Shown here: positions 28,753 through 51,573 of the stretch, piece after piece
Numbering within the stretch: position 1 is the stretch's first letter
Layout of the letters: each line of letters begins with the position of its first letter
Notes under the pieces: model-generated
Told to the model about the DNA's origin: nothing
Database searches by the model: none
Seen by the model: only the letters and a program-made list of their open reading frames with translations
From: Lentimicrobiaceae bacterium
Lineage (GTDB): Bacteria; Bacteroidota; Bacteroidia; Bacteroidales; UBA4417
Assembly (NCBI GenBank): GCA_033809755.1
Contig: JAPXLB010000002.1
Location: 64,486 to 128,485, forward strand
Direction: 5' to 3'
DNA: 64,000 bases
Translations under genes and position numbers: made by a program

Positions 28753-28758
28753 TATGAA

Positions 28759-36023: not shown

Positions 36024-36539
36024 ATGAATAATAAAATTTTATTTGCTGCTACGATTGCAGCTATGCTACTGGCGGGATGTGCTGGCAAGGTGCAAAAAGC
36101 CAATGACGAAATCTCTATAGGAGAGGAGTGGCTAGGACTTGTTTTCACTTGTGCCGACGATGAAAACGCCTTCTGCTTCCCCGATGAGGAAAAGATTTGC
36201 ACAGAACGGTATTACGATTATTACACCGAATATATGGAGATATTTGAATATCCCAACTTTGAGACCGATGAGGAGCAAAAAGCGGCAGAAATGGAATTTC
36301 AAAACAAATGGAAAGACATTTATCCTGCAGGAGTTGAGATGTGGTCACCATTTGGGCGTGGCAACGGAATGGAGGTAGGGCAAAAGCTGAAAAACGTTTC
36401 CATTGCTCACATCGAAGGCTTAAAATATCTGGTAACTGTGGACTACGGCGATGGGCTGGTTTTCAAAAACGAAGTAACCCTTGTGCCACATGAAGATGCG
36501 TTCCTGATAGATTATTTCAAAACCGAACTTGTTGAGTAA
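36024..36539 (+). CDS. hypothetical lipoprotein
   Basis: Lipobox LLAGCAG. This gene is noticeably more GC-rich than the window average. Confidence 0.5.
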   Translation: MNNKILFAATIAAMLLAGCAGKVQKANDEISIGEEWLGLVFTCADDENAFCFPDEEKICTERYYDYYTEYMEIFEYPNFETDEEQKAAEMEFQNKWKDIYPAGVEMWSPFGRGNGMEVGQKLKNVSIAHIEGLKYLVTVDYGDGLVFKNEVTLVPHEDAFLIDYFKTELVE

Positions 36540-36717
36540 TAAAAAGCAGAATATTTATGTTCAATTTTATCAAAACAATAATGCCTGGCTGCTTGCGCTA
36601 CCTGTTATTTCAGGCAGGAAATCCGCTTAATGAAGAAGGTATGCATAAAGCCCAAGAATCATGTTGATTGACTATGAACGCACCTATTGTTTCTCTAAAA
36701 AGCGTTAATAAGAAGAA

Positions 36718-37326
36718 ATGAAAGCAAAAACCAACAAATTATTATTATTATTATTTCTAATACTAATATTAGTAATCTGGCTGGTTATGAAGTTAACCTG
36801 GCAAAATAACGTAGTGCTAATATTCATAGTTGTATGGACACTAATGGGACTGGCATTGCTAATCCCGTGGGAAAACAGTATAAGAAAGAATATTAAAAAT
36901 TCCGAAAATCCTTTTCAAAAAGCTATCTATGCCAACTCAACAGACCCAGCTACTATAACTATGCTTTCCATCATGATTCCGTACATATTTCTGCCATATG
37001 TACTTTTTATCTACTATCCACGCCGTCGAAAAGCATACAAAAACGTTGTTTGCCAAAATTGCCAATCAAACGGTTCTATGAAGCACAAGCGTAAAGCTCA
37101 AATAATACAACAAGCCGTAATAGGACAAGATGGCGTCAAGCGTTACTCTTTTATCTGTAAAAATTGCGAACATCAACACTTTGAAGATATAACATACAAG
37201 TACGTAGCGCCTTCATCAAGCGGCAGCTCGAGCGATAGTTCTTGGAGTGGAGGTAGTAGTTCAAGTAGCGGTGGTTCCTGGGGAGGAGGAAGTAGTGGGG
37301 GAGGTGGTGCAAGCACGAAGTTTTAA
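36718..37326 (+). CDS. TPM-less paralog: multi-TM protein with C4 zinc ribbon and Ser/Gly tail
   Basis: Three hydrophobic segments, then CQNCQ...CKNCEHQHFEDITYKYVAP and the tail ...GGSWGGGSSGGGGASTKF. The C-terminal ~90 aa are homologous to the 16734 and 40727 proteins, but there is no TPM domain. Confidence 0.65.
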   Translation: MKAKTNKLLLLLFLILILVIWLVMKLTWQNNVVLIFIVVWTLMGLALLIPWENSIRKNIKNSENPFQKAIYANSTDPATITMLSIMIPYIFLPYVLFIYYPRRRKAYKNVVCQNCQSNGSMKHKRKAQIIQQAVIGQDGVKRYSFICKNCEHQHFEDITYKYVAPSSSGSSSDSSWSGGSSSSSGGSWGGGSSGGGGASTKF

Positions 37327-37341
37327 AGGAAAATATATGAA

Positions 37342-37806
37342 ATGAAAACAAAACTAATAATTATAGCTATGGCACTTTTTAGTTTATTTGGATGCAAATC
37401 AGATGCACAAGATAAACAGCTTGTTTCTGTAGAATATAATAGAGTGGCGATGCGTTCCTCACTTAATATGCGTATAACAACTTCAGAAACAAATGACAGC
37501 ATTATGATGTACTTTGATGATAGAGAAACAAACGAATCTGGTTCATTTCAAATAAGCCAAAACACTTTCGATTCGTTAGCAAACATTGTCCTTAAAATGA
37601 ATAGACCGCTCAATTTCAACCTATTTTTCGTTCGCGACCTTACCGAAACTTTTAAAGTAACTTTTATTAAAAATGATAGGACCCGTGAATATAAATATAA
37701 AAGATGGAAAATAGTAAATAAAAAAACGTTAGAGCGAGAAGAACAAGCAATTCAGCTTATGAGAGAATGTATAGACAATTATAGAAAAACACGAGAACAA
37801 GTTTGA
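37342..37806 (+). CDS. hypothetical lipoprotein (short member of a 3-member paralog family; N-domain only)
   Basis: MKTKLIIIAMALFSLFGC... aligns with the N-terminal halves of the 38902 and 44781 proteins (F.I(S/T)QN.FD.LANI...M.(R/K)P; KV.FIKN.). Confidence 0.55.
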   Translation: MKTKLIIIAMALFSLFGCKSDAQDKQLVSVEYNRVAMRSSLNMRITTSETNDSIMMYFDDRETNESGSFQISQNTFDSLANIVLKMNRPLNFNLFFVRDLTETFKVTFIKNDRTREYKYKRWKIVNKKTLEREEQAIQLMRECIDNYRKTREQV

Positions 37807-37859
37807 GCAAATGAAAGGAAATAATTAGAAAATAAAAATAACTTTTAAATAATAAAAAT

Positions 37860-38306
37860 ATGAGAACAAAATTAATGATTTTGATTGCGTCGGTAATACT
37901 ACCGTTAACGCTTCTTACGGCGTGCAATTCAGGCAAAAAAAACAATGTAGAACAATTTGAGGAAAAAGCGTTTTATTCGGGAGGATTAAAGTATGAAACC
38001 CTTGTAAAATTAAGTATCAATTCTAAAGGAGAAGTAACAGGAACTGTTACGGCAAATGAATATGGCATGGAGGGAGAGCCTATTTCATTCACCGGAACGC
38101 TTTCAAACGGAGAAATAAATGTAAAATTCAACGGCGAACCACCAATAGTTGGAACAGCCTCCGAATGGACAAATATACCATGGCGCATTGAGGAAAGAGA
38201 TGGCAAAGATGTGCTAATCATTACATTCTACGCAATGGACTACGAAACCGAAGAGTGGGGTAATTCTGAGTATGAATTTGAAGAAGTAAATGAACAAGTC
38301 AACTAA
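37860..38306 (+). CDS. hypothetical lipoprotein
   Basis: Lipobox LLTACNS. No recognisable domain. Confidence 0.5.
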   Translation: MRTKLMILIASVILPLTLLTACNSGKKNNVEQFEEKAFYSGGLKYETLVKLSINSKGEVTGTVTANEYGMEGEPISFTGTLSNGEINVKFNGEPPIVGTASEWTNIPWRIEERDGKDVLIITFYAMDYETEEWGNSEYEFEEVNEQVN

Positions 38307-38361
38307 ACTTATAAAGTAAATCTTTAAACAAAAAATAATAGCAACTAAATTAATTAATGTT

Positions 38362-38787
38362 ATGACAACAAACGAATTAGGAACACAAATGGGTAATATA
38401 GCTATAAAAGCTTTCAATTTTCTCTACGACAATTTTAGCAATTCACCCGAAATAACCGACGAATTGAAACAAAAGGTGAAAGGCGAACGTGAAAAAATCT
38501 TCACAGAATTTATTCCTTTAGTTAAACAGTGTCACACATTTGGCGAAGAAGATGTGGCTGACATTGGACAAATTATGGCTTTAACTTACATGCAAGGAAT
38601 AGATGATGCCGGTACTAAACTACAGAAAATGGCTAGTATTGTGGAAAACATCGTACATGAAGGCGGTGATGAAGCCTTTATGAGAGATTTTATGAGTCTT
38701 TCTGTTATGTTTGAGTTTTTAGAAAAACCAACCGAAGACGATGAAGAAAGGAAAGCTATGTTAAAACATGTTGGATTATTAGATTAA
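38362..38787 (+). CDS. hypothetical cytoplasmic protein (helical)
   Basis: A 141-aa ORF with no signal peptide. Codon usage is consistent with its neighbours. Confidence 0.45.
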   Translation: MTTNELGTQMGNIAIKAFNFLYDNFSNSPEITDELKQKVKGEREKIFTEFIPLVKQCHTFGEEDVADIGQIMALTYMQGIDDAGTKLQKMASIVENIVHEGGDEAFMRDFMSLSVMFEFLEKPTEDDEERKAMLKHVGLLD

Positions 38788-38901
38788 GGATTAAAAAAGC
38801 AATTGAGATGCAATTAACTGAGAATCAACATGAGGCAACTGGTGATATTGTTGAACTTATTGCTATAAAGTTATAAAAACAAACAGAAAGTTTAATATAT
38901 A

Positions 38902-39708
38902 ATGAAAACAAAACTGATTATTATGACATTATCACTTTCTTCCCTTTTCGGATGCGCAAACGCACAAAAAACGGAACTTATATCTGCCGATTACCACCGT
39001 TCTGGTATGCGTAGCGATGACCGAATTAGTATTAGAGTAAAAAAAACAACGGAAACTTATACTGTAGAATTTGAAAAAGGTCATTCCGAAGAAAACAATA
39101 GCACAAGTTTTGAAATTACGCAAAACGACTTCGATAAGTTGGCGAATATTCTTTTCGGTATGAGCAAACCTCGTAAAGAACGTCGCAATTTCATCCGCGA
39201 TTTAATGGAGCATCTTGATGTAAAATTTATTAAAAACGGCAAGGTGGTATCCTATAATTATTCTATCAATCAACCAATGGATGAGAAAACTGCAGAATTG
39301 CAAAACCAGGCGATTGATTTGATGTACCTATGGATTGACAAGTTCAAGCAACGAAGCGAAATTCGTATTTATTACAGTAAAGGCATTGCTACGCCAACCG
39401 AAATATACACTCACGCCGATCCTGCCGATTTGGTTGAAGACTTAGGTACTTTTACCGAACGCCTTGACCCAAATCGCGATAATTACTGTGGCGGAAGTAA
39501 TGATTACTCTCACCGTTGGCGTGCTTTAAAACCAGGTGTGGTTACCGTTTGGCATGAAGAGTTGATGGGAGGATACGATGCAAATAGGCTGACCGAAGAG
39601 TTTGAACCTCATTCGTGCTACATTATTGATGAAAACTTAAACGTGCGTTATTCGAAAGAAGAAACAGAAACAGCACGAGAAAAATTTAAACAACGAACTA
39701 AAAGATAA
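38902..39708 (+). CDS. lipoprotein, paralog family member with C-terminal chagasin/I42-like candidate domain
   Basis: Lipobox SLFGCAN. The C-terminal half (CGGSNDYSHRWRALKPGVVTVWHEE...CYIIDENLNVRYSKEETE) resembles the (G)GG...F.F.A...G pattern of I42 peptidase inhibitors. This is by eye only. Confidence 0.5.
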   Translation: MKTKLIIMTLSLSSLFGCANAQKTELISADYHRSGMRSDDRISIRVKKTTETYTVEFEKGHSEENNSTSFEITQNDFDKLANILFGMSKPRKERRNFIRDLMEHLDVKFIKNGKVVSYNYSINQPMDEKTAELQNQAIDLMYLWIDKFKQRSEIRIYYSKGIATPTEIYTHADPADLVEDLGTFTERLDPNRDNYCGGSNDYSHRWRALKPGVVTVWHEELMGGYDANRLTEEFEPHSCYIIDENLNVRYSKEETETAREKFKQRTKR

Positions 39709-39729
39709 AATATCTAAGGAGGACAACAT

Positions 39730-40116
39730 ATGCTTTTATTAGGAGTAAGTGAAGAAAACGGTTGGCTAGCGTCAACATTTAATCTAACGTATGCAGTCGG
39801 ATGGGATAAAATATGTAAAGCTGTAAGCATGATTTACAGTTATTACGAGAATGCAGAAATTCTAATCGATAATGAAAAAATAGATATCTCTTCAAAAGAG
39901 GATATTTTAAAACTTGAAGAAGCCGGAAATATGACAATTCGCGGAATATCGACTATAATTAAAGTCCCAATTATGATAACGTTCTTTAATCAGCTTCAGA
40001 CCGTAAATGTTGCTGTTCCATGTATGAAAGGGGAATTTGAAAAGGCTGATTATCAAAAGTTCAACATGTCGTTAGGACAATATATGGATAGTTTGGAATT
40101 GGCAATGTATCGTTAG
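39730..40116 (+). CDS. hypothetical cytoplasmic protein
   Basis: A 128-aa ORF with no signal peptide. It starts 22 nt after the preceding gene. Confidence 0.4.
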   Translation: MLLLGVSEENGWLASTFNLTYAVGWDKICKAVSMIYSYYENAEILIDNEKIDISSKEDILKLEEAGNMTIRGISTIIKVPIMITFFNQLQTVNVAVPCMKGEFEKADYQKFNMSLGQYMDSLELAMYR

Positions 40117-40131
40117 TGGGAATAAATAATT

Positions 40132-40195
40132 AAACCATTAAGAAATTAAGGTTAGTTAAGTACTTAATGATTCTTAATGTCTTAATGGTTCAAAA
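40132..40195 (+). repeat. 64-bp palindromic repeat element, copy 1
   Basis: AAACCATTAAGAAATTAAGGTTAGTTAAGTACTTAATGATTCTTAATGTCTTAATGGTTCAAAA. The termini AACCATTAAG/CTTAATGGTT are inverted repeats, and there are internal CTTAATG iterations. Confidence 0.85.
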
Positions 40196-40204
40196 TAATT
40201 AAAT

Positions 40205-40609
40205 ATGACAAAGAAAGAAGTAACAAATTTATCGTACGAAATTGTCAGTTGTGCCATAAAAGTGCATAAAGAATTAGGTCCGGGTCTATTGGAAAGTGTT
40301 TACGAAAAATGCCTGAAATACGAACTCCAGAAACAAGGATACAGTGTTCAGCAACAGATGTTAGTTCCTGTTATTTATGATACAATAGAGATGGATGTTG
40401 AATTGCGAATAGATTTATTGGTAAACGATTGCGTTGTAGTAGAACTTAAGGCAGTAGAGACAGTCTTGCCTGTACATGAGGCTCAGTTACTTACATATAT
40501 GAAATTGCTCAAAAAACCGCAAGGATTGCTGATTAATTTTCATACGGATAACATTACAAAAAGCATGAAACCATTTGTAAATGAATATTTTAAACAGTTA
40601 AATGATTAA
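40205..40609 (+). CDS. GxxExxY protein (PD-(D/E)XK nuclease-fold family)
   Basis: Contains LGPGLLESVYEKCL (the G-x-x-E-x-x-Y signature) and a D...ELK core (DLLVNDCVVVELKAV). Its 134-aa size is typical for the family. Confidence 0.8.
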   Translation: MTKKEVTNLSYEIVSCAIKVHKELGPGLLESVYEKCLKYELQKQGYSVQQQMLVPVIYDTIEMDVELRIDLLVNDCVVVELKAVETVLPVHEAQLLTYMKLLKKPQGLLINFHTDNITKSMKPFVNEYFKQLND

Positions 40610-40611
40610 AC

Positions 40612-40675
40612 AAACCATTAAGAAATTAAGGTTAGTTAAGGACTTAATGATTCTTAATGCCTTAATGGTTCAAAA
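40612..40675 (+). repeat. 64-bp palindromic repeat element, copy 2
   Basis: 62/64 identical to copy 1 and exactly 480 bp downstream of it. It begins 3 nt after the GxxExxY stop codon. Confidence 0.85.
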
Positions 40676-40726
40676 AATAGTTTTATCAGGGTAAATTCAA
40701 CCAAAAAGTAGAATATTATAGAAAAA

Positions 40727-41974
40727 ATGAAAGAAAAGAGACATACAAGTAATAGCGGAGTAATAAAAAGCGTTTTTATTCTTTTTACAATCTTTATTGC
40801 AACTGCCTTGTTGGTCAGTTTTGCTGGAAACCATGAGGATTCTAACAAAGAAATAGCTATTTCAAAGCAAGAACGCTCTACGAGTAGTAGGCTACAAAGC
40901 AGCGCTGTCCTTAAGACTAATATCAGATACCGTGTAGAAGATGTACCAAATGTGCAACTTCAAAATGCATCTCGCTATACCAGCGATCCGAATAATCTGA
41001 TTACCGAACGCTACCGTATCGCAATCGACAGTATAGCAGCCACAATACGAGATACATTCGATGTGGAAGTGGCGGTAGTTGTACTACCAAATTTCGATGA
41101 TAACAAATACGCTACATTACGCGAATTTGCCAATCAGCTATTCAACACTTGGGGCATTGGCAATAAAGAAACAGACCAAGGATTGCTCATCTTGCTCAAT
41201 TTAGAAGAGGGCAATAGAGAAATAACCTTCGAAACAGGATATGGACTTGAGGCTATACTCCCCGACGGAATTTGTAAGTTAATCCAAACAAAAATAATGC
41301 TGCCTTATTTAGTCGAAGGGGAGTACGGCGAAGCACTCGAAGCAGGACTAATTGCAGTACAAAAGCGGCTTGCCGACCCCGACAACGAGGAGTTCCTTGG
41401 CACAACCACGAGCAGCGGCGATGATGGAGATGCAATATTTGGATTCGCTATTTGGACACTGTTTGGGTTAGCCTTTTTAGGTTATGCCCACTACAAGAGA
41501 AGAAAAGACGTAAACATAGGTGATAACGTTTATCAAAAACAAATTTTTTACAGAGGAATTAAACCTGCGAACTTAATTGCATACTTTATTTTTGTCCCCT
41601 ATCTAATTATTCCTTACTTGCTTTTCATCAATATTCCTTGGCGTAGAAAATTGCGAAGAGGTATGATTTGCGAAGCATGTGAGACAATTGGTAAAATGAA
41701 ACTTGAGAAAGGTAAAGAATTTATTTCATTGGAGCCAACAACGGAAGAAAATATATATATACACACTGACCGCTACACTTTTACTTGCAAAAAGTGCGGA
41801 CATCAGCATTTTGAAGATATAAGAATTCAATATATACAACCTTATTCAGGTAGTAGTGGTTCGGGATATAGTTCATCAAGCTACGACGACAGTTCATCAT
41901 GGGATTCGTCAAGTGATGGTGGCTCGTGGGGTGGTGGTAGTAGTGGTGGCGGTGGTGCAAGTACAAGGTTTTAA
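40727..41974 (+). CDS. TPM-domain (YgcG-like) membrane protein with C4 zinc ribbon and Ser/Gly tail, second full-length paralog
   Basis: N-terminal TM, then a TPM domain (RYRVEDVPNVQL...VAVVVLPNF...TWGIGNKETDQGLLILL...REITFETGYG), two TMs, CEACE...CKKCGHQHFEDI, and the tail ...GGSWGGGSSGGGGASTRF. Confidence 0.8.
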   Translation: MKEKRHTSNSGVIKSVFILFTIFIATALLVSFAGNHEDSNKEIAISKQERSTSSRLQSSAVLKTNIRYRVEDVPNVQLQNASRYTSDPNNLITERYRIAIDSIAATIRDTFDVEVAVVVLPNFDDNKYATLREFANQLFNTWGIGNKETDQGLLILLNLEEGNREITFETGYGLEAILPDGICKLIQTKIMLPYLVEGEYGEALEAGLIAVQKRLADPDNEEFLGTTTSSGDDGDAIFGFAIWTLFGLAFLGYAHYKRRKDVNIGDNVYQKQIFYRGIKPANLIAYFIFVPYLIIPYLLFINIPWRRKLRRGMICEACETIGKMKLEKGKEFISLEPTTEENIYIHTDRYTFTCKKCGHQHFEDIRIQYIQPYSGSSGSGYSSSSYDDSSSWDSSSDGGSWGGGSSGGGGASTRF

Positions 41975-42041
41975 GGTTATTTATAAATGGTACAGATTTA
42001 AGTAAAAAATTAAAATAATAAAATAATAAAATAATAAAACA

Positions 42042-42560: not shown

Positions 42561-42589
42561 AATTTAATTAAACTAAAAACATTAATAAA

Positions 42590-44634: not shown

Positions 44635-44739
44635 ATGAAAAAAATATTTTACTTATTACTACTATTAGGAGTTTTTATGCATCATAACGTACATGCTCAA
44701 GATGTGGAAAAAACCGTAAAAGAAATCAGACAAGAATAG
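44635..44739 (+). pseudogene. 34-codon remnant of a paralog of the 42042-42560 gene
   Basis: MKKIFYLLLLLGVFMHHNVHAQDVEKTVKEIRQE* compared with MKRIFITIIITMLCLTAIQAQDAAKDVQKIRTQYY... It has a signal peptide plus the first ~12 mature residues, then a stop. Confidence 0.4.
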
Positions 44740-44780
44740 GTGGCAAGAATAATTACTTAAATAAAATAATTAATAAAATC

Positions 44781-45581
44781 ATGAAACCCAAAATTATTAT
44801 TATGACAGCATTTTCTCTATTTACTTGCATCGGCTGTAATATGGCTCAAAAAAAACAATTAGTTTCGGTAAGTTTCGATTATTCCGTAGAATGTATAGAC
44901 TATCGCTTTGCTGCAACAGTTAAAAAAGATGGTGATACATATAATGCTTCTTATCAAGACAAGCAAATGCAAAAACCCGTAGCATTTGACCTTACCGATA
45001 CCGATTTTGATGAATTAACAAAAGTAGTATCCAAAATGAATAAGCCCGCCAAAAATCGAAAACATGCCGTTACAGACGAAAGTAGAGTAGGGACATTTAC
45101 GGTAGTTTTAAACAAAAAGGGCAAAGACATAACGTATGAGTACAAAATAAATAAATTTTCAAGCGAAAAAGAAAACAATCTGAAAAACGAAGCCATTGAT
45201 TTGATTAAGAAATGTATAGACCGTCATAAGAAAAAAAGTGAAATTCGTGTAGGTTGGCGCCAAGTCATCCCTCCAACTTATGAGGTATATGCTCACGCCG
45301 AACCTGCTGAATTGGTCGAATATTTGGGTAAATTTGTTGAGAATAGTAACTCTAAAAAGAACGTGTGCGGTGGAAGTGAATCCGGAACTTTTAGATGGAA
45401 AGCTTTAAAGCCAGGCGTGGTAACTGTTTGGGTAGAAGAATCACGTTATCATCACGATCCAAAAAATTTCCCTACACTTTTCGAGCCATTCCGTTGTTAT
45501 ATCATCGATGAAAACCTAAATGTTCGTTATTCGGAAGAAGAAACAGAAGCAGCAAAAAAGAAGTTTAAAGAAAAAAAATAA
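44781..45581 (+). CDS. lipoprotein, paralog of 38902-39708 (N-domain + chagasin/I42-like candidate domain)
   Basis: CGGSESGTFRWKALKPGVVTVWVEE...FEPFRCYIIDENLNVRYSEEETEAAKKKFK is colinear with the 38902 protein along its full length. Confidence 0.5.
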   Translation: MKPKIIIMTAFSLFTCIGCNMAQKKQLVSVSFDYSVECIDYRFAATVKKDGDTYNASYQDKQMQKPVAFDLTDTDFDELTKVVSKMNKPAKNRKHAVTDESRVGTFTVVLNKKGKDITYEYKINKFSSEKENNLKNEAIDLIKKCIDRHKKKSEIRVGWRQVIPPTYEVYAHAEPAELVEYLGKFVENSNSKKNVCGGSESGTFRWKALKPGVVTVWVEESRYHHDPKNFPTLFEPFRCYIIDENLNVRYSEEETEAAKKKFKEKK

Positions 45582-45625
45582 TAAAATAAAATCATTTAAT
45601 ACCTTTAAGAAAAAATATTAGAACT

Positions 45626-46384
45626 ATGAGAGCAAAAAATTATTTATTATTAATGGCTTTAATTGTCATCTCTTGTAATCAAGGCATGAGTCAGAAAACA
45701 AAGCCTGCAAATTTAGAACTCGAAACCTATACCGAATGGGTAACCAAGTACGAAGAAACCGAATGTTATGAATTGTCGATTCCAAATTATTTCGGAGAAA
45801 ACAATCCTATTACTATTCTGTTTTACTACAATGATGAAGGCAACGAAGATCAATCAACCATCAACCTGATTGATAAAAATGGAGATTTTTTAATCACACA
45901 CTATGAACCAATAACCGTACATCCAATGGCAATGGGATACACCAAACTTGTGGTAGGAGATATTGACGGCAACGGATTAAAAGATATTAGAATGGAATTT
46001 CCATACATGGGCAACGGACTTATGGCATGTGCCGTACGTACTATTTATATCTTTCAGGAAAAAGATAAAATATTCAACAAAGTATCTTTCGATAGCTTTA
46101 TTTGCACCGACCAAGCTTCGGAAATTGATGCCGATGGCGACGGTAAATGGGAAATTATTGCCAGAACCTTGGAATACATCGACGAAGAAAATTATTATTG
46201 GATCGATAATATATACAAATATACCCCCGAAGGATTAGTATGTGTTAGTGAAGAAAATGGTTATCCAAAAGCAATAAATACGCACGAAGCCAAAACAACC
46301 GATGCTAAAATCGTGAATAAAAATAAAAAAGGTTGGATAAAAGAACAGCCCGATGGATATATCTTTTTTTTTAATAGTAAATAA
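45626..46384 (+). CDS. lipoprotein with FG-GAP/VCBS-like loops
   Basis: Lipobox VISCNQ, plus VGDIDGNGLKDI and IDADGDGKWEII motifs. Confidence 0.5.
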   Translation: MRAKNYLLLMALIVISCNQGMSQKTKPANLELETYTEWVTKYEETECYELSIPNYFGENNPITILFYYNDEGNEDQSTINLIDKNGDFLITHYEPITVHPMAMGYTKLVVGDIDGNGLKDIRMEFPYMGNGLMACAVRTIYIFQEKDKIFNKVSFDSFICTDQASEIDADGDGKWEIIARTLEYIDEENYYWIDNIYKYTPEGLVCVSEENGYPKAINTHEAKTTDAKIVNKNKKGWIKEQPDGYIFFFNSK

Positions 46385-46393
46385 AACAATAAT

Positions 46394-47776
46394 ATGAGAA
46401 TAAGATTAATTTGTCTACTATCTATCGCTATAGTACTTGCCTCATGTGCAAATAAAACCTCAAAAGAGGAAGATATTTCTATAGTTTTACTAGAAGATCA
46501 ATACAGCCAAACAAACGACCCTTTTGATAAATTCGTCTTGCTTGACCAAATTGCAAAGGCAAAAGCACAAACGCTTTCAGCTGAGGAGTTTGGCAACTTT
46601 TTTTTGGAATTCAAGGTCGAACTTGAAAACCTTATTGCCGATATAAATACCAACGAAAAAGATTATCTGTACAAACGATACGGACTGCATCACGATGACA
46701 GAGGAAACGAGATAACTCCGCCAGATTGGGTTCAGGAAAAAGAAAAACGTTATGCCGATGCAGGATTGTATCCAAAACACATAGGTGAAGGTTTTGAAGA
46801 ATTTCGCCTCGCCAATGACTATTTCAGTCAAAATTTTGATAGTATTTTACCTATGGATATTAAAGAATACCTGAAACTAAAAGAAAAAGATGGTGAAATT
46901 GTATCCGATGGCGGTTTGTGGATAGAACTTAACGAGCTAGCTGACGAAATTCTTCTTTACGAAAATTTTATAATTAATCACCCTAATAGTAAGCTGATAG
47001 ATGAGGTAAAGGAAAAATACCTTTTTTACCAAGATATCTACTTAAACGGCATCGACAATACACCCATAAAGGATAAGAACGGTCGCCTTTTGCCGGAAGC
47101 TAAAGCCGAATTGCAACGCTTTATAAAGACAAACCCTAATAGCCCTACAACTGAATTAGCAAAAATGACGTTAGAAGATAAAACTGTTGTAGATATGTTT
47201 CTGTTATTGCCTGATGAAGCATTTGATGGAGCGTATTCGAGTGCCATACGTAAAAGAATGGCTAATGGAGAACATATTAAATTTGAAAGTACTTGGGAAC
47301 ATGATTATAGATGGATAGATATTTCCGACATAGAAAAAGGTGTATTGACATTGGAAGACGAAAGCGAGTCGCCTTTAGGATTTATTTATTTTTGGAGATT
47401 AAGGGAAAACAAGAATCTGGTTACTGTACTTAATAATCAGAGTCACAAGCTAAAAGCCTACTGGTATGAGAACGGTAAATTAGAAAAAGATGATGACTTT
47501 TATGCTTTTGTAAACGAGAACTCAAATCTAGAAACTGACGATTTTTTTGACCTTCAAAATGTTCCGGAAGAGATAAGGAAAGACCTTCAATATTTTACCG
47601 ATAGTTATTTGAGTTTATCTAAAAATGGTGTAATAACATTTACAATTAGCAATGCACACTTTTATGATTATAACAACAGAGAAATATTTGACGAACGCGA
47701 ATATTATTATAAATTTGAACTTGTGAATGGCAAATGGACAAAAAAGCGAATAAAAACATACAACACAAATGATTAA
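46394..47776 (+). CDS. hypothetical lipoprotein
   Basis: Lipobox VLASCAN. 460 aa with no recognisable domain. Confidence 0.5.
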   Translation: MRIRLICLLSIAIVLASCANKTSKEEDISIVLLEDQYSQTNDPFDKFVLLDQIAKAKAQTLSAEEFGNFFLEFKVELENLIADINTNEKDYLYKRYGLHHDDRGNEITPPDWVQEKEKRYADAGLYPKHIGEGFEEFRLANDYFSQNFDSILPMDIKEYLKLKEKDGEIVSDGGLWIELNELADEILLYENFIINHPNSKLIDEVKEKYLFYQDIYLNGIDNTPIKDKNGRLLPEAKAELQRFIKTNPNSPTTELAKMTLEDKTVVDMFLLLPDEAFDGAYSSAIRKRMANGEHIKFESTWEHDYRWIDISDIEKGVLTLEDESESPLGFIYFWRLRENKNLVTVLNNQSHKLKAYWYENGKLEKDDDFYAFVNENSNLETDDFFDLQNVPEEIRKDLQYFTDSYLSLSKNGVITFTISNAHFYDYNNREIFDEREYYYKFELVNGKWTKKRIKTYNTND

Positions 47777-47799
47777 TTTTAAATAAATAATTTATATTA

Positions 47800-47864
47800 A
47801 GCCATTAAAAAGTTGAGAGTCGTACAGACCTTAATGTCCCTTAATGCCTTAATGGTTCAAAATA
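47800..47864 (+). repeat. palindromic repeat element, diverged copy 3
   Basis: AGCCATTAA...CTTAATGTCCCTTAATGCCTTAATGGTTCAAAA. The right arm is nearly identical to copies 1 and 2, and the centre has diverged. Confidence 0.7.
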
Positions 47865-47895
47865 AAAACATTAACAATTCAAAAAATTAAACAAT

Positions 47896-49680
47896 ATGAA
47901 ACGAATAATTTATTTACTGCTTATTTCCCTGACAGTTGCATCCTGTTCAGGTGTTAAGAAAAAAGGTGTTAACGTAGTTACGTTCGACTCTATAGTGATG
48001 CAAGAAAAAATTATGCTGAATCCCAATTTACCAGATACAATTCCTTATGCTACTCTGGATATCAACTTTGTATATCCTGCTAAATTCGGCTCTAAAGAGC
48101 AATTACAAAAACTACAATCAATATTTTACGAAAATGTATTAGGCGAATTTTGTACAAATGCTTCGTCTCCCAATAGTGCCATAGCCTCTTATATGAATGG
48201 TTACGTGGATATGTACCGCGAAATTAGTTCCGACTTTGATGAAATGCTCATCGAATATGGAAAGCATAATCTACCATATCACAGGTTTTCGTACTACAGA
48301 AGTATTTCAAATAATATAATTTACAAAAATGAATCTTTACTAAGTTTCTCAACACATTACACTGATTACCAAGGTGGAGCACACGGCATATATATACAAG
48401 AAAATATAACTGTAAATTTGAACACAATAGAAAAGATTCAAGAAACTGATATTTTTATTCCGAATTATAAAGAACCTCTAGCACAAGTTATAAGAAAAAA
48501 ACTCTTGGAAAATTTGAGAGAAATATATGATGGTGATGATGAATACTTAAAACAATATTTTTTTGAATTTAATAACATTTATCCCAACAATAATTTCCTT
48601 TTTGATGACAAAGGCTTAAATTATGTGTATAACGTCTACGAAATTGCACCATACGCATCCGGAATGTTCGAGGTATTTATTCCGTATTCCGAAATAACAC
48701 ATCTACTCAATATGGAAATTTTCGCGGAGCTTTTCCCTGATATGGAGTTAAAAGAAGTGACAGAAGAACCAAAAACTGCCGAAGAAATTCACAGTGTAAA
48801 TTATAACGAGTTCCCAATAGCTTACATTAAAAATGATAAACTTTACTTTTTCAATCCTGAAAACCATACCATTGTTGAGTTTGAGGAAGAAACCGAACAA
48901 GTTTTCAACTGCGTTTACTCCGACCAAGATGCGATGTTTTATTATACAGTTTCGCAAAACGAAAATCTAGTTATAAAGCAAGTAGATTTAAGCGTTATGC
49001 CGGCACAACCAAAGTTGCTTTTTAATCTAAACAAACCTACAAAAGAATTTTATTCTGAAACTTACGGCGAAAAAGCAAAGTTGAAATTTATTAAAGATAA
49101 CTTGCTTTTAGAGTGTGATTTCTCATGGGATTCTTATAACTTCATTAAGTTTTACAATTATTCTGTAAAGGATAATACAGTTGATAAAATTAATTGGAAA
49201 CAATTCCACAATAAATTTGGATGTCTCCCTTATTATTTACCAGACGAAACAACAGACTACAGTTCAATCTATAAAAAAGCTGATCAGCTAGATTTATCGG
49301 AATATATAGACGAATACAACAAGGATTTTGAAAAGGAATATTACTTTGAAGGAACATCAGCTGATGGTTCAAAAATCATTTTTGCTATAATGATTGGCAT
49401 GGGTGACCTTCCTCACGGTCCATATTGTGTTTTAAATGCCGATGGGGAAAAAATACAATTGTTAGACGGTACGGATATGGGTTCATCATTCAAACCACTT
49501 TGGTGTAATAATAATGTTGTATATATACGCTCATACAAATCAGAAACTGAAAAAAATCAGTGGGGTGATGCCAAAATAATAGAAGAACTTTGCTATACCC
49601 AAGCTACCGATAATTCTATTAAACGTATAGACCAAGATGTAGATTATTACGCGACTAGAACAAAACATCCAATAAAATAA
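47896..49680 (+). CDS. lipoprotein with DUF3298 (RsiV/PdaC-type) domain and unknown C-terminal half
   Basis: Lipobox TVASCSG. YTDYQGGAHGIY and VYNVYEIAPYASGMFEVFIPYSEI are hallmark DUF3298 motifs. Confidence 0.6.
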   Translation: MKRIIYLLLISLTVASCSGVKKKGVNVVTFDSIVMQEKIMLNPNLPDTIPYATLDINFVYPAKFGSKEQLQKLQSIFYENVLGEFCTNASSPNSAIASYMNGYVDMYREISSDFDEMLIEYGKHNLPYHRFSYYRSISNNIIYKNESLLSFSTHYTDYQGGAHGIYIQENITVNLNTIEKIQETDIFIPNYKEPLAQVIRKKLLENLREIYDGDDEYLKQYFFEFNNIYPNNNFLFDDKGLNYVYNVYEIAPYASGMFEVFIPYSEITHLLNMEIFAELFPDMELKEVTEEPKTAEEIHSVNYNEFPIAYIKNDKLYFFNPENHTIVEFEEETEQVFNCVYSDQDAMFYYTVSQNENLVIKQVDLSVMPAQPKLLFNLNKPTKEFYSETYGEKAKLKFIKDNLLLECDFSWDSYNFIKFYNYSVKDNTVDKINWKQFHNKFGCLPYYLPDETTDYSSIYKKADQLDLSEYIDEYNKDFEKEYYFEGTSADGSKIIFAIMIGMGDLPHGPYCVLNADGEKIQLLDGTDMGSSFKPLWCNNNVVYIRSYKSETEKNQWGDAKIIEELCYTQATDNSIKRIDQDVDYYATRTKHPIK

Positions 49681-49723
49681 TAGTAAAAAACATCATACTT
49701 CTAAAACACTTATATTATTATAA

Positions 49724-49756
49724 CTTAATGCCCCTTAATGCCTTAATGGTTCAAAT
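49724..49756 (+). repeat. palindromic repeat element, right-arm-only copy 4
   Basis: CTTAATGCCCCTTAATGCCTTAATGGTTCAAA. It shares the 16-mer CCTTAATGGTTCAAAA/T with copies 2 and 3. No left arm is visible. Confidence 0.65.
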
Positions 49757-49891
49757 GTAGCTATGCCGAATTAGAATCTACTAACTTTTGGTTCCTAGCT
49801 TCGTTTAGCCAAAGGCTAAATATTTCAAAAAAATGATTTGAAAAATAAAAATTATTTAATACTAATATTGGTTAAATACCAAAGATTTTAG

Positions 49892-49899
49892 TACATTTG
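49892..49899 (+). promoter_or_regulatory. -7 box (TACATTTG)
   Basis: Matches TAnnTTTG, 91 nt upstream of ATG 49990. Confidence 0.35.
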
Positions 49900-49989
49900 C
49901 AAAGAGTAAATTTATGGAAACCAAAACAACATACCCAAAATTACATTCAAACAATTAATACATACATTAACATTTAAAAACCCATTATT

Positions 49990-50520
49990 ATGAGACATTT
50001 ATTTTTATTTATCAGCGTTATCGCATTTACTTTTTTTACAACAGGTAACGTACAAGCACAAAGTGGAATTAAAGCCGAAACTAACAGCATTTCACAACAC
50101 GAACTATACGATGCCAACGGAAAACTATTAGGCAAAGTGAAATCCGATGGGGTTGTACAAGTGGCCTCAGGTAAACAAATCGGTAAAATTGAATCTAACG
50201 GCACCTTGCGAAATGAAAGAGGTGCTCAGGTCGGTAAAATTGAAACCGATGGAACAATAAAAGATGGTAAAGGAGGTAAACTTGGTCAAGTTAATGCAAA
50301 CGGTTATGTACGTGATGCAGCCGGAAAACAAATTGGAAATATAGATAGAGACGGAACCATCAAAAATGCACAAGGAGCTAAGATTGGAAAAGCAACAGGA
50401 AATAATAAAAATATTATCGGAGCTTGCTATTTCTTCTTTTTCTTTAAAGATAACGTAACTGTAGATAAAGTTGAGAAGAGTACACCGCGTATACAATCCG
50501 CACCTAGTGGCAGAAAATAA
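49990..50520 (+). CDS. secreted protein with ~5.5 tandem 17-aa Gly/Lys repeats
   Basis: Signal peptide (FFTTGNVQAQ), then repeats GKQIGKIESNGTLRNER / GAQVGKIETDGTIKDGK / GGKLGQVNANGYVRDAA / GKQIGNIDRDGTIKNAQ ... Confidence 0.55.
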   Translation: MRHLFLFISVIAFTFFTTGNVQAQSGIKAETNSISQHELYDANGKLLGKVKSDGVVQVASGKQIGKIESNGTLRNERGAQVGKIETDGTIKDGKGGKLGQVNANGYVRDAAGKQIGNIDRDGTIKNAQGAKIGKATGNNKNIIGACYFFFFFKDNVTVDKVEKSTPRIQSAPSGRK

Positions 50521-50532
50521 TATCATAAAACT

Positions 50533-51573
50533 ATGAAAATAAAATTACTTTTACTTGCAACCGCAATTTTCTTGTTTGGTTGCAAAAACAAATCTGTTAA
50601 AACCGAAACTCAGGATATTGATTACGGTTCGTATTTTAACGAACGCTACGATTACAAAGTAGATTGCCCTCTCTTTCTTATTCCACAAGGTGAGTCAGAA
50701 AGTGAAGACGGACAAGCATTTGTTTCCGAAGACGGCAAAAGCAGAATGCTCGTTTATCGCACATTTAAAGCTCTTACAGGCTGCAATCCAACTATAGAGG
50801 CTGCTTTCGATGAAGATATGCAAACATCAAGAAATGTAATAGAAAAACAACAGTTCAGCAATTATTATTTCATAAAAGGAGAATTAGACGAAAACACTCT
50901 TTATAAGACATATACTATTTTGGAAAACGACGAATACTTTGTAATCTATTTCGAATATCCAAAAGATGATGAAGACTTATTTGAGAGCATAAGCCAATAC
51001 GTGTACGAATCGTTTAAGGTTGGTGCCGGTGTCGGCTATATCGAACACAACGAATTTGTGATGTTTTTAGAAGAGTTCTTGAACGATTGTTTTTGGGACG
51101 TAAATTTCAACTCCTTACTCAAAAACAACGACCATCGATTGGCTAAATACATAGACCCGCAAATGGATATTCGTCGATATTACAATCCGGGCTCAGTAGC
51201 TTATCTTTACTCACGTGACGATAATTTCGGCTTCGAAGATTTCAACGACTTCGACACTAAAGCTAATTCGGGTGGCAAGTTTTCAATAAAAGAATTATCC
51301 TACGAAGCCATGCCCTGCGAATTAGACTTTAATCAGCAGAAAGGCTCTATAGAAATATATTTCTGGTCGGTAGGTAGTTTCCCTTATATAGTAGTTGATA
51401 CAGAAACCTTTGAAATGCAAGAAGTTACACTACCTTACCCCGATGCTGAAAAAATAGCAGTTTATCTGCCCGATTATTACAAAGATAACGTAAACGTACG
51501 CGCGTTTTACTTTGTAAATACACCTTCAGGTTGGAAGATAGCTTTTGTAGATGATTCCTTATGCTCGGCATAA
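50533..51573 (+). CDS. hypothetical lipoprotein
   Basis: Lipobox FLFGCKN. 346 aa with no recognisable domain. Confidence 0.5.
   Translation: MKIKLLLLATAIFLFGCKNKSVKTETQDIDYGSYFNERYDYKVDCPLFLIPQGESESEDGQAFVSEDGKSRMLVYRTFKALTGCNPTIEAAFDEDMQTSRNVIEKQQFSNYYFIKGELDENTLYKTYTILENDEYFVIYFEYPKDDEDLFESISQYVYESFKVGAGVGYIEHNEFVMFLEEFLNDCFWDVNFNSLLKNNDHRLAKYIDPQMDIRRYYNPGSVAYLYSRDDNFGFEDFNDFDTKANSGGKFSIKELSYEAMPCELDFNQQKGSIEIYFWSVGSFPYIVVDTETFEMQEVTLPYPDAEKIAVYLPDYYKDNVNVRAFYFVNTPSGWKIAFVDDSLCSA

What the first reader, a model, noticed from the sequence alone, without database searches (positions are those of the whole stretch)
36024..51573. 15-kb same-strand island of small lipoproteins and unknown proteins with paralog families, remnants and hairpin repeats: possible immunity/inhibitor or surface-repertoire island
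Seen:
- About 19 tightly packed + strand ORFs.
- Eleven have lipoboxes, three more have signal peptides and three are cytoplasmic.
- Internal paralog families are present: 37342/38902/44781, and 36718/40727 with 16734 outside the island.
- A truncated remnant lies at 44635.
- A PD-(D/E)XK-like gene is flanked by direct repeats.
- Four copies of a palindromic element sit at gene 3' ends.
- GC content is patchy.
- There is no toxin, secretion-system or mobility gene.
- By-eye domain hints include a chagasin/I42-like protease inhibitor, DUF3298 (the lysozyme-binding fold of RsiV), SH3b and FG-GAP loops.

Inference: the architecture resembles arrays of periplasm-directed immunity or inhibitor genes, such as the orphan-immunity/AID-type arrays described in Bacteroidales. 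It could equally be a variable surface-lipoprotein repertoire. Either way the function is unknown and the organisation is non-random.
Basis: inference. Interest (0 to 1): 0.7.

Follow-up and report, generated by a model that had tools for sequence, protein, structure and literature searches.

The report
Shifting array of orphan periplasmic lipoprotein genes
The reported gene cluster is real, but it is the tail of a 39.5-kb lineage-specific stretch of mostly unknown periplasmic lipoprotein genes that gains, loses, duplicates and reshuffles single genes between close relatives; nothing tested shows that it is a toxin-immunity array.

Summary
OBSERVATION: confirmed almost item by item.
- There are 19 + strand ORFs: 11 with lipoboxes, 3 with signal peptides, 3 cytoplasmic and 2 membrane proteins.
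- Also confirmed: two paralog families, a 34-codon remnant, a GxxExxY/PD-(D/E)XK gene between 92%-identical 75-nt repeats, and 4 copies of a hairpin element.

WHAT IS NEW:
- The island is only the 3' part of a 39.5-kb all-+-strand block (12.9-52.3 kb). That block separates two genes that are adjacent in about 13 other Bacteroidales species.
- Content changes gene by gene between strains, a sister species (about 91% nt identity) and more distant relatives.
- Island genes are under purifying selection (pN/pS 0.1-0.5).
- Most families are extreme orphans (26-33 relatives among billions of proteins).

NOT SUPPORTED:
- Chagasin/I42: not supported at sequence level.
- AID/rAID membership: no recombinase, no GC skew, no repeated intergenic sites, no immunity-family hits.
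- Surface repertoire: none of 18 lipoproteins has a Bacteroidota surface-export signal.

VERDICT:
- This is an ordinary but well-documented plasticity zone of periplasm-facing lipoproteins. A protective or binding role is only inferred.
- Two side leads are worth noting: a 128-aa cytoplasmic family conserved across phyla with no Pfam entry, and a GxxExxY-plus-hairpin unit that behaves as a mobile cassette.

The parts
12860..52360 (+). Whole lineage-specific block: about 38 co-directional genes between the 11957 gene and serC. The reported island is its 3' part.
   Evidence: Homologues of 11957(+) lie directly upstream of serC in 13 related species. The LuxC-like 10786(-) gene lies upstream in about 25. 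The left junction and upstream half are the same in two other assemblies of the species.
23182..31128 (+). Alpha-2-macroglobulin lipoprotein (1856 aa, no CxEQ thioester motif) and PBP1C. This is the known periplasmic protease-trap plus peptidoglycan-synthase pair, lying upstream in the same block.
   Evidence: Pfam bMG/A2M domains and Transgly+BiPBP_C. No CxEQ motif. The defence proposal for this pair is taken from PMC4498604.
36024..36539 (+). Orphan lipoprotein, 171 aa.
   Evidence: Lipobox LAGC. No Pfam or NCBIfam hit. 94% identical in sister species L195.
36718..37326 (+). Truncated paralogue of the TPM proteins. It keeps the membrane segments, the CxxC...CxxC ribbon and the Gly/Ser tail, and lacks the TPM domain.
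   Evidence: BLASTP to 40727 residues 242-372 (E 6e-30) and to 16734. Motifs.
37342..37806 (+). Short paralogue (154 aa) of the 38902 family, N-terminal domain only. Absent from sister species L195.
37860..38306 (+). Orphan lipoprotein, 148 aa.
   Evidence: Lipobox. No family hit. Orthologues in L107 (58%) and L195 (89%).
38362..38787 (+). Cytoplasmic protein, 141 aa, no family hit.
38902..39708 (+). Founding member of the three-copy lipoprotein family. Two domains: a beta4-alpha-beta2-alpha N-domain and a C-terminal Ig-like sandwich. Absent from L195.
   Evidence: 33 homologues in 5.8e9 proteins. 26 representative clusters in 1.84e9 with a profile search. AlphaFold pLDDT 85.9. No convincing PDB match.
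39730..40116 (+). Cytoplasmic 128-aa protein of a family conserved across phyla, with no Pfam entry. Preceded by a Shine-Dalgarno-like AAGGAGG.
   Evidence: 235 homologues, 61-73% identical in Firmicutes and Chloroflexi. pLDDT 91.8. No PDB fold match. Spacer sequence.
40121..40195 (+). Hairpin element, copy 1 (left flank of the GxxExxY gene).
40205..40609 (+). GxxExxY / PDDEXK_3 nuclease-superfamily gene. It is a strain-variable insert.
   Evidence: Present in the window and L091, absent in L092, L093, L096 and L097. Empty-site alignment.
40601..40675 (+). Hairpin element, copy 2 (right flank). It is identical to the single copy at the empty site.
40727..41974 (+). TPM-domain membrane protein with zinc ribbon and Gly/Ser tail. 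Paralogue of 16734, which sits next to LemA.
   Evidence: Pfam TPM_phosphatase 7e-28. BLASTP 7e-66 to 16734.
42042..43982 (+). Three orphan secreted or lipoprotein genes: 42042 (172 aa, signal peptide), 42590 (218 aa) and 43323 (219 aa).
   Evidence: The 42042 family also follows the 38902/39730 pair in L100.
44024..44602 (+). Secreted SH3b-domain protein.
   Evidence: Pfam SH3_3 2.5e-7.
44635..44739 (+). 34-codon remnant of a 42042-family gene.
   Evidence: Also called as a 34-aa gene in L002 and L005.
44781..45581 (+). Third member of the 38902 lipoprotein family (43% identical to 38902).
45626..46384 (+). Lipoprotein with sub-threshold FG-GAP-like repeats.
46394..47776 (+). Modular lipoprotein. 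The N-terminal domain (residues about 1-262) is swapped between strains. The C-terminal domain of about 200 aa is constant and is shared with 22028 and with stand-alone 206-aa genes in relatives. The gene is absent from L195.
47788..47862 (+). Hairpin element, copy 3 (left arm degenerate).
47896..49680 (+). PdaC+DUF3298 lipoprotein with a C-terminal region of about 300 aa of unknown family. Duplicated in some strains. Only 69% identical in L195, whose neighbouring genes are about 90% identical.
49682..49756 (+). Hairpin element, copy 4 (right arm only). It forms the end of the duplicated unit in L002 and L005.
49990..50520 (+). Secreted five-fold beta-flower protein.
   Evidence: Pfam Bflower_2 2.3e-22. 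The fold is described in PMC10584680 with function unknown.
50533..51573 (+). Orphan lipoprotein, 346 aa.
51649..52032 (+). Pro/Thr-rich tandem-repeat protein without a signal peptide. The last gene of the block; its length varies (114-127 aa) between strains.
   Evidence: pN/pS about 0.05.

Best explanation
SHOWN
- The 15-kb 'island' is the 3' part of a chromosomally fixed, lineage-specific accretion zone of 39.5 kb. It lies between a conserved gene pair (11957-like and serC).
- The host is an uncultured low-GC Bacteroidales genus; one sister MAG is labelled Lentimicrobiaceae.
- The zone contains no mobility gene.
- It changes by single-gene gain and loss, tandem duplication followed by divergence, domain swapping, truncation and inter-strain recombination. 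Some of these events occur at copies of a REP-like hairpin.
- The genes are real and maintained by selection (pN/pS well below 1).

INFERRED
- The products stay inside the envelope as lipoproteins facing the periplasm, because they have lipoboxes but no surface-export signal.
- Together with the co-directional A2M-PBP1C, LemA-TPM and SPFH modules, they act as an accessory, fast-turnover set of periplasmic binding or protective proteins. Candidate folds for that role are the Ig-like, SH3b, DUF3298, LRR and beta-flower domains.
- They are therefore not a coherent pathway, a toxin-immunity array or a surface coat.

HOW SURE
- The evolutionary and organisational part is well supported (about 0.8).
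- The protective/binding role is a weak inference (about 0.3).
For: INSERTION BETWEEN CONSERVED NEIGHBOURS
- Shown. The block is fixed in the species.

GENE-BY-GENE TURNOVER
- Sister species L195 lacks 33199, 37342, 38902, the GxxExxY gene and 46394. The indel ends fall at or close to the gene borders. L195 has two other genes (216 and 92 aa) instead.
- L107 carries a re-ordered subset.
- The module 38902-39730-42042 sits at an unrelated site in L100 and L189.

CHANGES BETWEEN STRAINS
- Duplication of the DUF3298 gene, with copies 92% identical and ends at the hairpin copies.
- N-terminal domain swap in 46394.
- Recombination mosaic: L091 is 100% identical over 31178-44602, then 97-99%.

SELECTION AND REMNANTS
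- pN/pS is mostly 0.1-0.5 in island genes (range 0-0.7) against mostly 0-0.05 in the named flanking housekeeping genes.
- Remnants.

LOCALISATION AND CONTEXT
- Lipoboxes but no acidic export signal in 18 of 18 lipoproteins.
- Envelope modules lie in the same block.
- The Bacteroidota -7 motif TAnnTTTG occurs in only four of the 38 spacers examined: upstream of 13294, 31178, 49990 and serC. This is compatible with a few long transcripts.
Against: - No biochemical or structural link to any ligand, protease, lysozyme or toxin was found.
- Only 2 of about 15 orphan families were modelled, and neither matched a known fold.
- Three ORFs are cytoplasmic, so the set is not purely periplasmic.
- The export-signal rule was defined in Capnocytophaga, Bacteroides and Flavobacterium, not in this lineage.
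- Co-direction with A2M-PBP1C is guilt by association.
- The promoter-motif count is weak evidence, because internal promoters were not excluded.
Confidence: 0.55

Rival explanations
1. Orphan-immunity array (AID-like). The small periplasmic lipoproteins and the cytoplasmic proteins neutralise effectors delivered by T6SS or other contact-dependent systems of competitors. Genes would be gained piecemeal as new toxins are met.
For: - Turnover is single-gene and cassette-like.
- The genes are small and co-directional, and many are directed to the periplasm.
- In Butyricicoccus the 39730 homologue lies in an array with WapI and SUKH_6 immunity families.
- 39730 is 61-73% identical across phyla and carries a Shine-Dalgarno-like AAGGAGG. 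This suggests horizontal spread, as reported for immunity genes.
Against: - There is no XerD-like recombinase, no GC skew and no repeated intergenic sites (against the criteria).
- No hit to Imm, SUKH, WapI or other immunity Pfam families. No PADLOC hit among the ten proteins scanned.
- No toxin was recognised next to homologues in nine groups of contexts.
- In Gemella and Parvimonas the 39730 homologue sits among miscellaneous metabolic genes.
- Within the species the array is largely fixed and under purifying selection.
Confidence: 0.2
2. Variable surface-lipoprotein repertoire. The products would be exported to the cell surface and diversify under pressure from phage, predators or a host.
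For: - Lipoprotein enrichment and paralog families.
- Domain swap in 46394.
- An unusually diverged 47896 allele: 69% against about 90% for its neighbours in L195.
Against: - None of 18 lipoproteins has two consecutive acidic residues at +2 to +6. Net charge there is zero or positive in 17 of 18 (against the signal defined in PMC5080379).
- No invertible promoter, recombinase or phase-variation repeat was seen.
- pN/pS is below 1 throughout.
Confidence: 0.08
3. Cargo of a decayed mobile element (ICE, prophage or integron-like platform) that integrated upstream of serC.
For: - A 39.5-kb insertion lies between conserved neighbours.
- A tRNA-Ser lies 2 kb upstream of the block.
- The sister species carries a 92-aa gene in the array that looked, by eye only, like a Bro-N/RhuM-type fragment.
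Against: - No integrase, transposase, conjugation or phage gene occurs in 64 kb.
- Composition equals that of the flanks.
- The block does not abut the tRNA.
- The content consists of ordinary chromosomal envelope modules.
Confidence: 0.07

Closest known systems
rAID-1 / AID orphan-immunity gene clusters of gut Bacteroidales (Ross et al., bioRxiv 10.1101/471110)
   Same: - Long runs of small, co-directional, mostly unannotated genes in Bacteroidales.
- Gene content varies between relatives.
   Different: - No 5' XerD-like tyrosine recombinase.
- No GC skew relative to the genome.
- No repeated intergenic motif between ORFs.
- No homology to immunity families.
- Not on a mobile element, and fixed within the species.
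Polymorphic-toxin immunity gene arrays (SUKH, Imm and WapI families; own knowledge of Zhang et al. 2012)
   Same: - Heterogeneous small genes in tandem.
- One member (39730) has homologues inside such an array in Butyricicoccus.
   Different: - Most members here are lipoproteins of orphan families.
- No toxin gene or toxin fragment is adjacent.
- No Imm-family hit.
Bacterial alpha-2-macroglobulin + PBP1C periplasmic defence operon (PMC4498604)
   Same: - It lies in the same co-directional block.
- It also encodes periplasmic lipoproteins proposed to protect the envelope.
   Different: - The island genes have no sequence or detected fold relation to A2M.
- The link is positional only.
REP/BIME palindromic elements and their REP-associated transposases (own knowledge)
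   Same: - The hairpin element is short, intergenic, imperfectly palindromic and multi-copy.
- It is found in many genomes, sometimes in tandem, and marks recombination end points.
   Different: - The associated gene is a GxxExxY PD-(D/E)XK-superfamily protein, not a Y1 transposase.
- Only four copies occur in this window.
- The element is absent from the related islands in L107, L100, L102 and L189.
Integron cassette arrays (own knowledge)
   Same: - Single-gene units are gained and lost in a co-directional array.
- The filled GxxExxY site looks like Campbell-type integration of a gene-plus-hairpin circle at a resident hairpin.
   Different: - No integrase is present.
- Hairpins flank only two of about 20 genes.
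- No common promoter was demonstrated.

Membership tests
rAID-1 (recombinase-associated AID) | [quoted passage not shown] | tested here: not met
   No Phage_integrase or recombinase hit in the ORFs of at least 110 aa scanned across the 64-kb window (downstream genes). Identity to the reference protein itself could not be computed.
rAID-1 (recombinase-associated AID) | Two or more co-directional downstream genes | tested here: met
   About 38 co-directional genes. This feature is not specific.
rAID-1 (recombinase-associated AID) | GC content skewed relative to the genome or recombinase | tested here: not met
   Island 0.346, block 0.358, rest of window 0.332.
rAID-1 (recombinase-associated AID) | Repetitive, integron-like intergenic sequences between ORFs | tested here: not met
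   The only shared spacer motif is the hairpin, found in 4 of 21 spacers. All other 8-mers occur at shuffle level.
rAID-1 (recombinase-associated AID) | Genes homologous to T6SS or polymorphic-toxin immunity families | tested here: not met
   No Imm, SUKH, WapI or similar Pfam hit at E<=0.01 for 20 ORFs, or at E<=1 for 10 of them plus the 24 members of the 38902 family. The curated set of 46 Bacteroidales T6SS immunity genes was not available here.
Chagasin / peptidase inhibitor I42 | Match to PF09394 at the gathering score | tested here: not met
   1 of 24 members of the 38902 family at E 0.13. No hit for the other ORFs.
Chagasin / peptidase inhibitor I42 | Chagasin-type Ig-like fold with the three inhibitory loops | tested here: inconclusive
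   The model has a C-terminal beta-sandwich. No chagasin or ICP entry is among the top 50 PDB matches of the whole two-domain model. The domain could not be searched on its own.
GxxExxY / PDDEXK_3 | Match to TIGR04256 and PF13366 above cut-off | tested here: met
   146.5 bits against a cut-off of 35, and 137.9 bits against 22.
TPM domain (YgcG/Psb32-like) | PF04536 above cut-off | tested here: met
   40727 scores 97.5 bits and 16734 scores 95.3 bits. 36718 lacks the domain.
DUF3298/PdaC module (the RsiV-type lysozyme-binding link is own knowledge) | PF11738 plus PF13739 above cut-off; lysozyme binding | tested here: met
   The domains are met (68.4 and 29.9 bits). Ligand binding is not testable with these tools.
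Beta-flower (Bflower_2) | PF21785 above cut-off | tested here: met
   79.4 bits against a cut-off of 38.
FG-GAP repeat | PF13517 above cut-off | tested here: not met
   23.4 bits against a cut-off of 26.9. In L195 the match is marked 'faint'.
REP-like palindromic elements | Short imperfect palindrome, intergenic, multi-copy, present in many genomes | tested here: met
   The 22-nt core occurs in 73 metagenome contigs, in tandem in several.
REP-like palindromic elements | Association with a RAYT (Y1) transposase | tested here: not met
   The associated gene is GxxExxY: 8 genes in 0.455 Mb of hairpin loci against 0 in 1.39 Mb of control loci.

The most novel reading that the evidence does not exclude
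The hairpin element plus the GxxExxY PD-(D/E)XK gene forms a self-mobilising, integrase-free cassette that integrates at resident hairpins. The same hairpins would serve as exchange points that move neighbouring lipoprotein genes, such as the DUF3298 unit. The array would then be a nuclease-driven cassette platform that assembles a repertoire of periplasmic immunity or inhibitor proteins.
Probability: 0.1. Interest if true: 0.7.

Novelty: new member of a known kind. Interest (0 to 1): 0.33.

Why it matters
- Runs of hypothetical lipoproteins are among the largest blocks of unannotated sequence in Bacteroidota genomes.
- This case shows, with strain, sister-species and genus-level comparisons, that such a run can be a chromosomal accretion zone. 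It turns over gene by gene without any mobility gene, while each gene stays under purifying selection.
- That pattern gives a concrete list of candidates for periplasmic binding or protection assays.
- It also singles out two tractable side targets. One is a 128-aa protein family conserved at 61-73% identity between Bacteroidales and Firmicutes that has no family entry. The other is a GxxExxY-nuclease-plus-hairpin unit with a clean filled and empty site.
- If the immunity reading were later proven, it would extend AID-type defence to non-gut, recombinase-free arrays.

Tried and rejected
1. Chagasin/I42 for the C-terminal domain of the 38902 family. Rejected at sequence level. The structural test was inconclusive, because only the whole model could be searched.
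2. Known fold for the 128-aa protein. The best PDB match has E 0.025 and TM <= 0.41 (RnlA NRD and Bet v 1-like proteins), too weak to use.
3. Profile search of the PDB with both families: nothing.
4. A wider superfamily for the 38902 family. A profile search of 1.84e9 representatives gave only 26 clusters. One of these (P0166) was a spurious match to TPR repeats.
5. The constant C-terminal domain of 46394: only 3 homologues, no annotation.
6. PADLOC defence models: only a weak Cas4-like hit for the GxxExxY nuclease fold.
7. Rfam: only the two tRNAs.
8. Sigma-70 promoter and terminator scan: at shuffle level and not suited to Bacteroidota.
9. A shared intergenic motif like that of integrons or rAID: none beyond the hairpin.
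10. Toxins next to the Gemella homologue: the unannotated gap is a frameshifted gene that I read by eye as oleate-hydratase-like (untested), not a toxin.
11. Species identity: no GTDB representative is closer than 79% SerC identity. The organism is known only from MAGs.
12. Literature on GxxExxY: three papers mention it, none on function.

Full report
1. WHAT IS THERE

- The window is low-GC (about 0.35) Bacteroidales DNA.
- From 36024 to 51573 there are 19 + strand ORFs with spacers of 9-309 nt. A 20th (51649-52032) lies before serC.
- A regex finds lipoboxes in 11 ORFs. Three more have signal peptides with A-x-A/G cleavage motifs, read by eye. Three have no signal, and two are membrane proteins.
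- BLASTP confirms both paralog families. These are 37342/38902/44781, and the C-terminal membrane/zinc-ribbon/Gly-Ser part shared by 36718, 40727 and 16734.
- The 34-codon ORF at 44635 is a true remnant. Its 'AQDVEKTVKEIRQE' matches the N-terminus of an intact 194-aa gene that occupies the same position, just upstream of the 44781 orthologue, in locus L107.
- The gene at 40205 is a GxxExxY/PDDEXK_3 protein. It lies between two 75-nt repeats that are 92% identical.
- The 22-nt core of that repeat occurs four times in the window, all inside the island, where 0.02 are expected. Three copies fold as strong hairpins. The fourth is a right arm only.
- Pfam confirms DUF3298+PdaC, SH3_3, TPM and a five-fold beta-flower domain. 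FG-GAP is sub-threshold.
- The beta-flower is a recently named fold of unknown function (PMC10584680).
- GC 'patchiness' is no greater than elsewhere in the window.

2. THE BOUNDARIES ARE WIDER THAN REPORTED

- Every ORF of at least 110 aa that I take as a gene, from 11957 to 54370, is on the + strand.
- I fetched serC loci from 80 other species. The best is only 79% identical, so the species has no close representative.
- In 13 of these loci a homologue of 11957(+) lies immediately upstream of serC. In about 25 the LuxC-like gene 10786(-) does.
- In this genome 39.5 kb (12860-52360) separates 11957 from serC.
- The upstream part of that block holds the following:
  - an SPFH/GYF protein and DUF805;
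  - LemA and TPM;
  - a secreted nucleoside hydrolase;
  - three paralogous LRR lipoproteins and several orphan lipoproteins;
  - an alpha-2-macroglobulin (no CxEQ motif) with PBP1C.
- A2M with PBP1C is a pair proposed to defend the periplasm (PMC4498604).
- The flanks are housekeeping genes: ZnuABC, two tRNAs, serC/serA, rpsT, gyrA and clpB.
- No integrase, transposase, secretion or toxin family appears anywhere in the window.
- The block, including its left junction, is present in the other assemblies of the species.

3. THE ARRAY IS DYNAMIC AT EVERY EVOLUTIONARY DISTANCE EXAMINED

Between strains (97-100% nt identity):
- The GxxExxY gene plus one hairpin is present in the window and L091, and absent in L092, L093, L096 and L097.
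- The empty site keeps a single hairpin identical to the right-hand copy.
- In L002 and L005 the unit made of the DUF3298 gene plus the half hairpin is present twice. The copies are 92% identical and the ends lie at the hairpin copies.
- The N-terminal 262 residues of 46394 are replaced in all other strains by a PdaC/DUF3298-like domain. That domain is 35% identical to the N-terminus of 47896. The C-terminal 200 residues stay about 98% identical.
- The repeat protein 51649 varies in length.
- L091 is 100% identical to the window from 31178 to 44602 and 97-99% beyond, which is a recombination mosaic.

Sister species L195 (about 91% nt identity):
- It lacks 33199, 37342, 38902, the GxxExxY unit and 46394. 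The indel ends fall at or close to the gene borders.
- It has a 216-aa and a 92-aa gene after the 39730 orthologue.
- Its 47896 orthologue is only 69% identical, while neighbouring genes are about 90% identical.

More distant relatives:
- L107 carries a re-ordered subset of the families.
- 38902-39730-42042 forms a small module at an unrelated site next to a UDG gene in L100 and L189.
- In L102 and L105 a 38902 homologue follows a stand-alone copy of the 46394 C-terminal domain.
- The 216-aa gene of L195 is 94% identical to the one in L189. The adjacent 128-aa genes of the L189 species are 84% identical to the window's copy. This suggests cassette exchange between species.

4. THE GENES ARE FUNCTIONAL BUT ARE ORPHANS

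- Between strains, pN/pS is mostly 0.1-0.5 for island genes (range 0-0.7) and mostly 0-0.05 for the named flanking housekeeping genes. Constraint is relaxed but real, with no gene-wide positive selection.
- The 38902 family has 33 relatives among 5.8e9 clustered proteins. With a profile it has only 26 representative clusters among 1.84e9.
- The constant domain of 46394 has 3 relatives.
- No Pfam, NCBIfam or PADLOC family covers 36024, 37342, 37860, 38362, 38902, 39730, 42042, 42590, 43323, 44781, 46394, 50533 or 51649 (PADLOC covered only some of them).

5. TESTS OF THE PROPOSED FUNCTIONS

Inhibitor or immunity folds:
- The AlphaFold model of 38902 (pLDDT 85.9) has a beta4-alpha-beta2-alpha platform followed by an Ig-like sandwich.
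- Foldseek against the PDB gives only low-TM architectural look-alikes such as MHC-like proteins, MAGO and PUR. No chagasin appears.
- I42 is hit by one of 24 family members, at E 0.13.

The 128-aa cytoplasmic protein 39730:
- It has more than 235 homologues of the same length. These are 61-73% identical in Parvimonas, Gemella, Butyricicoccus, Clostridiaceae, Oscillospiraceae and Chloroflexi.
- There is no Pfam entry. The model is confident (pLDDT 91.8), and there is no PDB fold match.
- In the window it is preceded by AAGGAGG. To my knowledge such a site is unusual for Bacteroidota, so it is compatible with acquisition from Firmicutes.
- Its Firmicutes contexts are mixed:
  - Butyricicoccus: a small-gene array with WapI and SUKH_6 next to CRISPR-Cas.
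  - Parvimonas: an array with GNAT, YCII, DJ-1 and MazE genes.
  - Gemella: a position between a frameshifted gene (read by eye as oleate-hydratase-like) and an acetyltransferase.
- This is the only observation that leans towards immunity, and it is weak.

AID/rAID membership:
- The published criteria require a 5' XerD-like recombinase, skewed GC, repetitive intergenic sequences and immunity-family homologues.
- All four were tested and not met.

Surface repertoire:
- The Bacteroidota lipoprotein export signal needs consecutive acidic residues just after the lipidated Cys (PMC5080379).
- None of the 18 lipoproteins of the block has them, and the segment is neutral or basic in 17 of 18.
- The proteins are therefore predicted to face the periplasm. 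This is an inference.

6. MOST LIKELY EXPLANATION

- The region is a chromosomal accretion (plasticity) zone upstream of serC. Single genes are inserted, duplicated, recombined into new domain combinations, truncated and lost.
- It has no dedicated mobility machinery. Some events use a REP-like hairpin as the crossover point.
- The products are mainly periplasm-facing lipoproteins with binding-type folds: Ig-like, SH3b, LRR, DUF3298 and beta-flower.
- The canonical -7 promoter motif TAnnTTTG occurs in only four spacers, upstream of 13294, 31178, 49990 and serC. The genes may therefore be co-transcribed with the A2M-PBP1C and LemA-TPM modules.
- I infer an accessory envelope-protective or ligand-binding role. 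My confidence is about 0.3 for that role and about 0.8 for the evolutionary description.

Rivals:
- An orphan-immunity array: 0.2.
- A surface repertoire: 0.08.
- Decayed mobile-element cargo: 0.07.

7. THE HAIRPIN AND THE GxxExxY GENE

- The 22-nt core CTTAATGNCTTAATGGTTCAAA has exact matches in 73 metagenome contigs of varied GC content (0.30-0.46). It is often in tandem.
- In 8 of those loci a GxxExxY gene 66-84% identical to 40205 lies within 11-330 nt of the motif. L124 has the same hairpin-gene-hairpin layout.
- There are no GxxExxY genes in 1.39 Mb of control Bacteroidales loci.
- Together with the filled and empty sites, this fits a small cassette that integrates at a resident hairpin. 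Deletion between the two repeats explains the polymorphism equally well.
- The hairpins are absent from the related islands in L107, L100, L102 and L189. They are therefore not the organising principle of the array.

8. NOVELTY AND SCORE

- The kind of feature is known: a lineage-specific run of hypothetical lipoproteins in a Bacteroidota genome with paralogs and remnants.
- What is added is a documented turnover pattern, corrected boundaries, negative tests of the AID, I42 and surface readings, and two side leads.
- I rate it a new member of a known kind, with interest about 0.33.

Noticed in passing
window 39730-40116: A 128-aa cytoplasmic protein belongs to a family of more than 235 same-length homologues. 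They are 61-73% identical between Bacteroidales, Firmicutes (Parvimonas, Gemella, Butyricicoccus) and Chloroflexi. The family has no Pfam or NCBIfam entry and no PDB fold match despite a pLDDT-92 model. In three Bacteroidales species it follows a 38902-like lipoprotein gene; in sister species L195 that lipoprotein gene is missing. In the window it is preceded by an AAGGAGG Shine-Dalgarno-like site.
   Followed up: partly
window 40121-40675; L092 9850-10010; L124: The GxxExxY/PDDEXK_3 gene plus one hairpin is a presence/absence polymorphism between strains. The empty site keeps one hairpin. Genes 66-84% identical sit next to the same hairpin core in 8 unrelated metagenome contigs, against none in 1.39 Mb of control loci. 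This may be a REP/RAYT-like relationship with a nuclease in place of a transposase.
   Followed up: partly
L108-L180 (e.g. L165 224-1384, L129, L150): The 22-nt hairpin core CTTAATGNCTTAATGGTTCAAA is conserved exactly in 73 metagenome contigs with GC 0.30-0.46. It is often in tandem arrays with spacing of about 104 nt. The right arm is better conserved than the left.
   Followed up: partly
window 12860-52360: The whole 39.5-kb co-directional block lies between genes that are neighbours in many other Bacteroidales. It includes SPFH, LemA-TPM and A2M-PBP1C modules, and no mobility gene is present.
   Followed up: yes
window 46394-47180 vs L001 3929-4820: The N-terminal domain of the 460-aa lipoprotein is swapped between strains. 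The window has a helical domain, also found in L107. All other strains have a PdaC/DUF3298-like domain related to the neighbouring gene 47896. Both are fused to the same C-terminal domain.
   Followed up: yes
L002 3637-7420, L005: The DUF3298 lipoprotein gene plus the half hairpin is present twice in some strains, and the two copies are 92% identical. In sister species L195 this gene is far more diverged (69% aa) than its neighbours (about 90%).
   Followed up: partly
window 31178-51573 vs L091: Assembly GCA_046128195.1 is 100% identical to the window across 31178-44602 and then drops to 97-99%. This indicates a recent recombination breakpoint near 44.7 kb.
   Followed up: partly
window 51649-52032: This ORF contains RPTQTVRPSDPVV-type Pro/Thr tandem repeats and has no signal peptide. 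Its length varies (114-127 aa) between strains, yet pN/pS is about 0.05.
   Followed up: no
window 23182-28752: The alpha-2-macroglobulin homologue lacks a CxEQ thioester motif.
   Followed up: no
window 12860-52360, intergenic spacers: The Bacteroidota -7 promoter motif TAnnTTTG occurs in only four of the 38 spacers examined: upstream of 13294, 31178, 49990 and serC. This hints at very long transcripts.
   Followed up: no
L195 6017-7022; L189 8418-9068: The sister species carries a 216-aa gene after the 128-aa gene. It is 94% identical to the gene in the more distant L189 species, whose 128-aa gene is only 84% identical to the window's copy. L195 also carries a 92-aa gene that looked, by eye, like a Bro-N/RhuM-type fragment. 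This suggests cassette exchange between species.
   Followed up: no
window 19798-20604, 33199-34926, 34983-35969; L195 2067-3056: There are three paralogous LRR lipoproteins in the block. The sister species has one gene where the window has the tandem pair, consistent with unequal recombination between paralogues.
   Followed up: no
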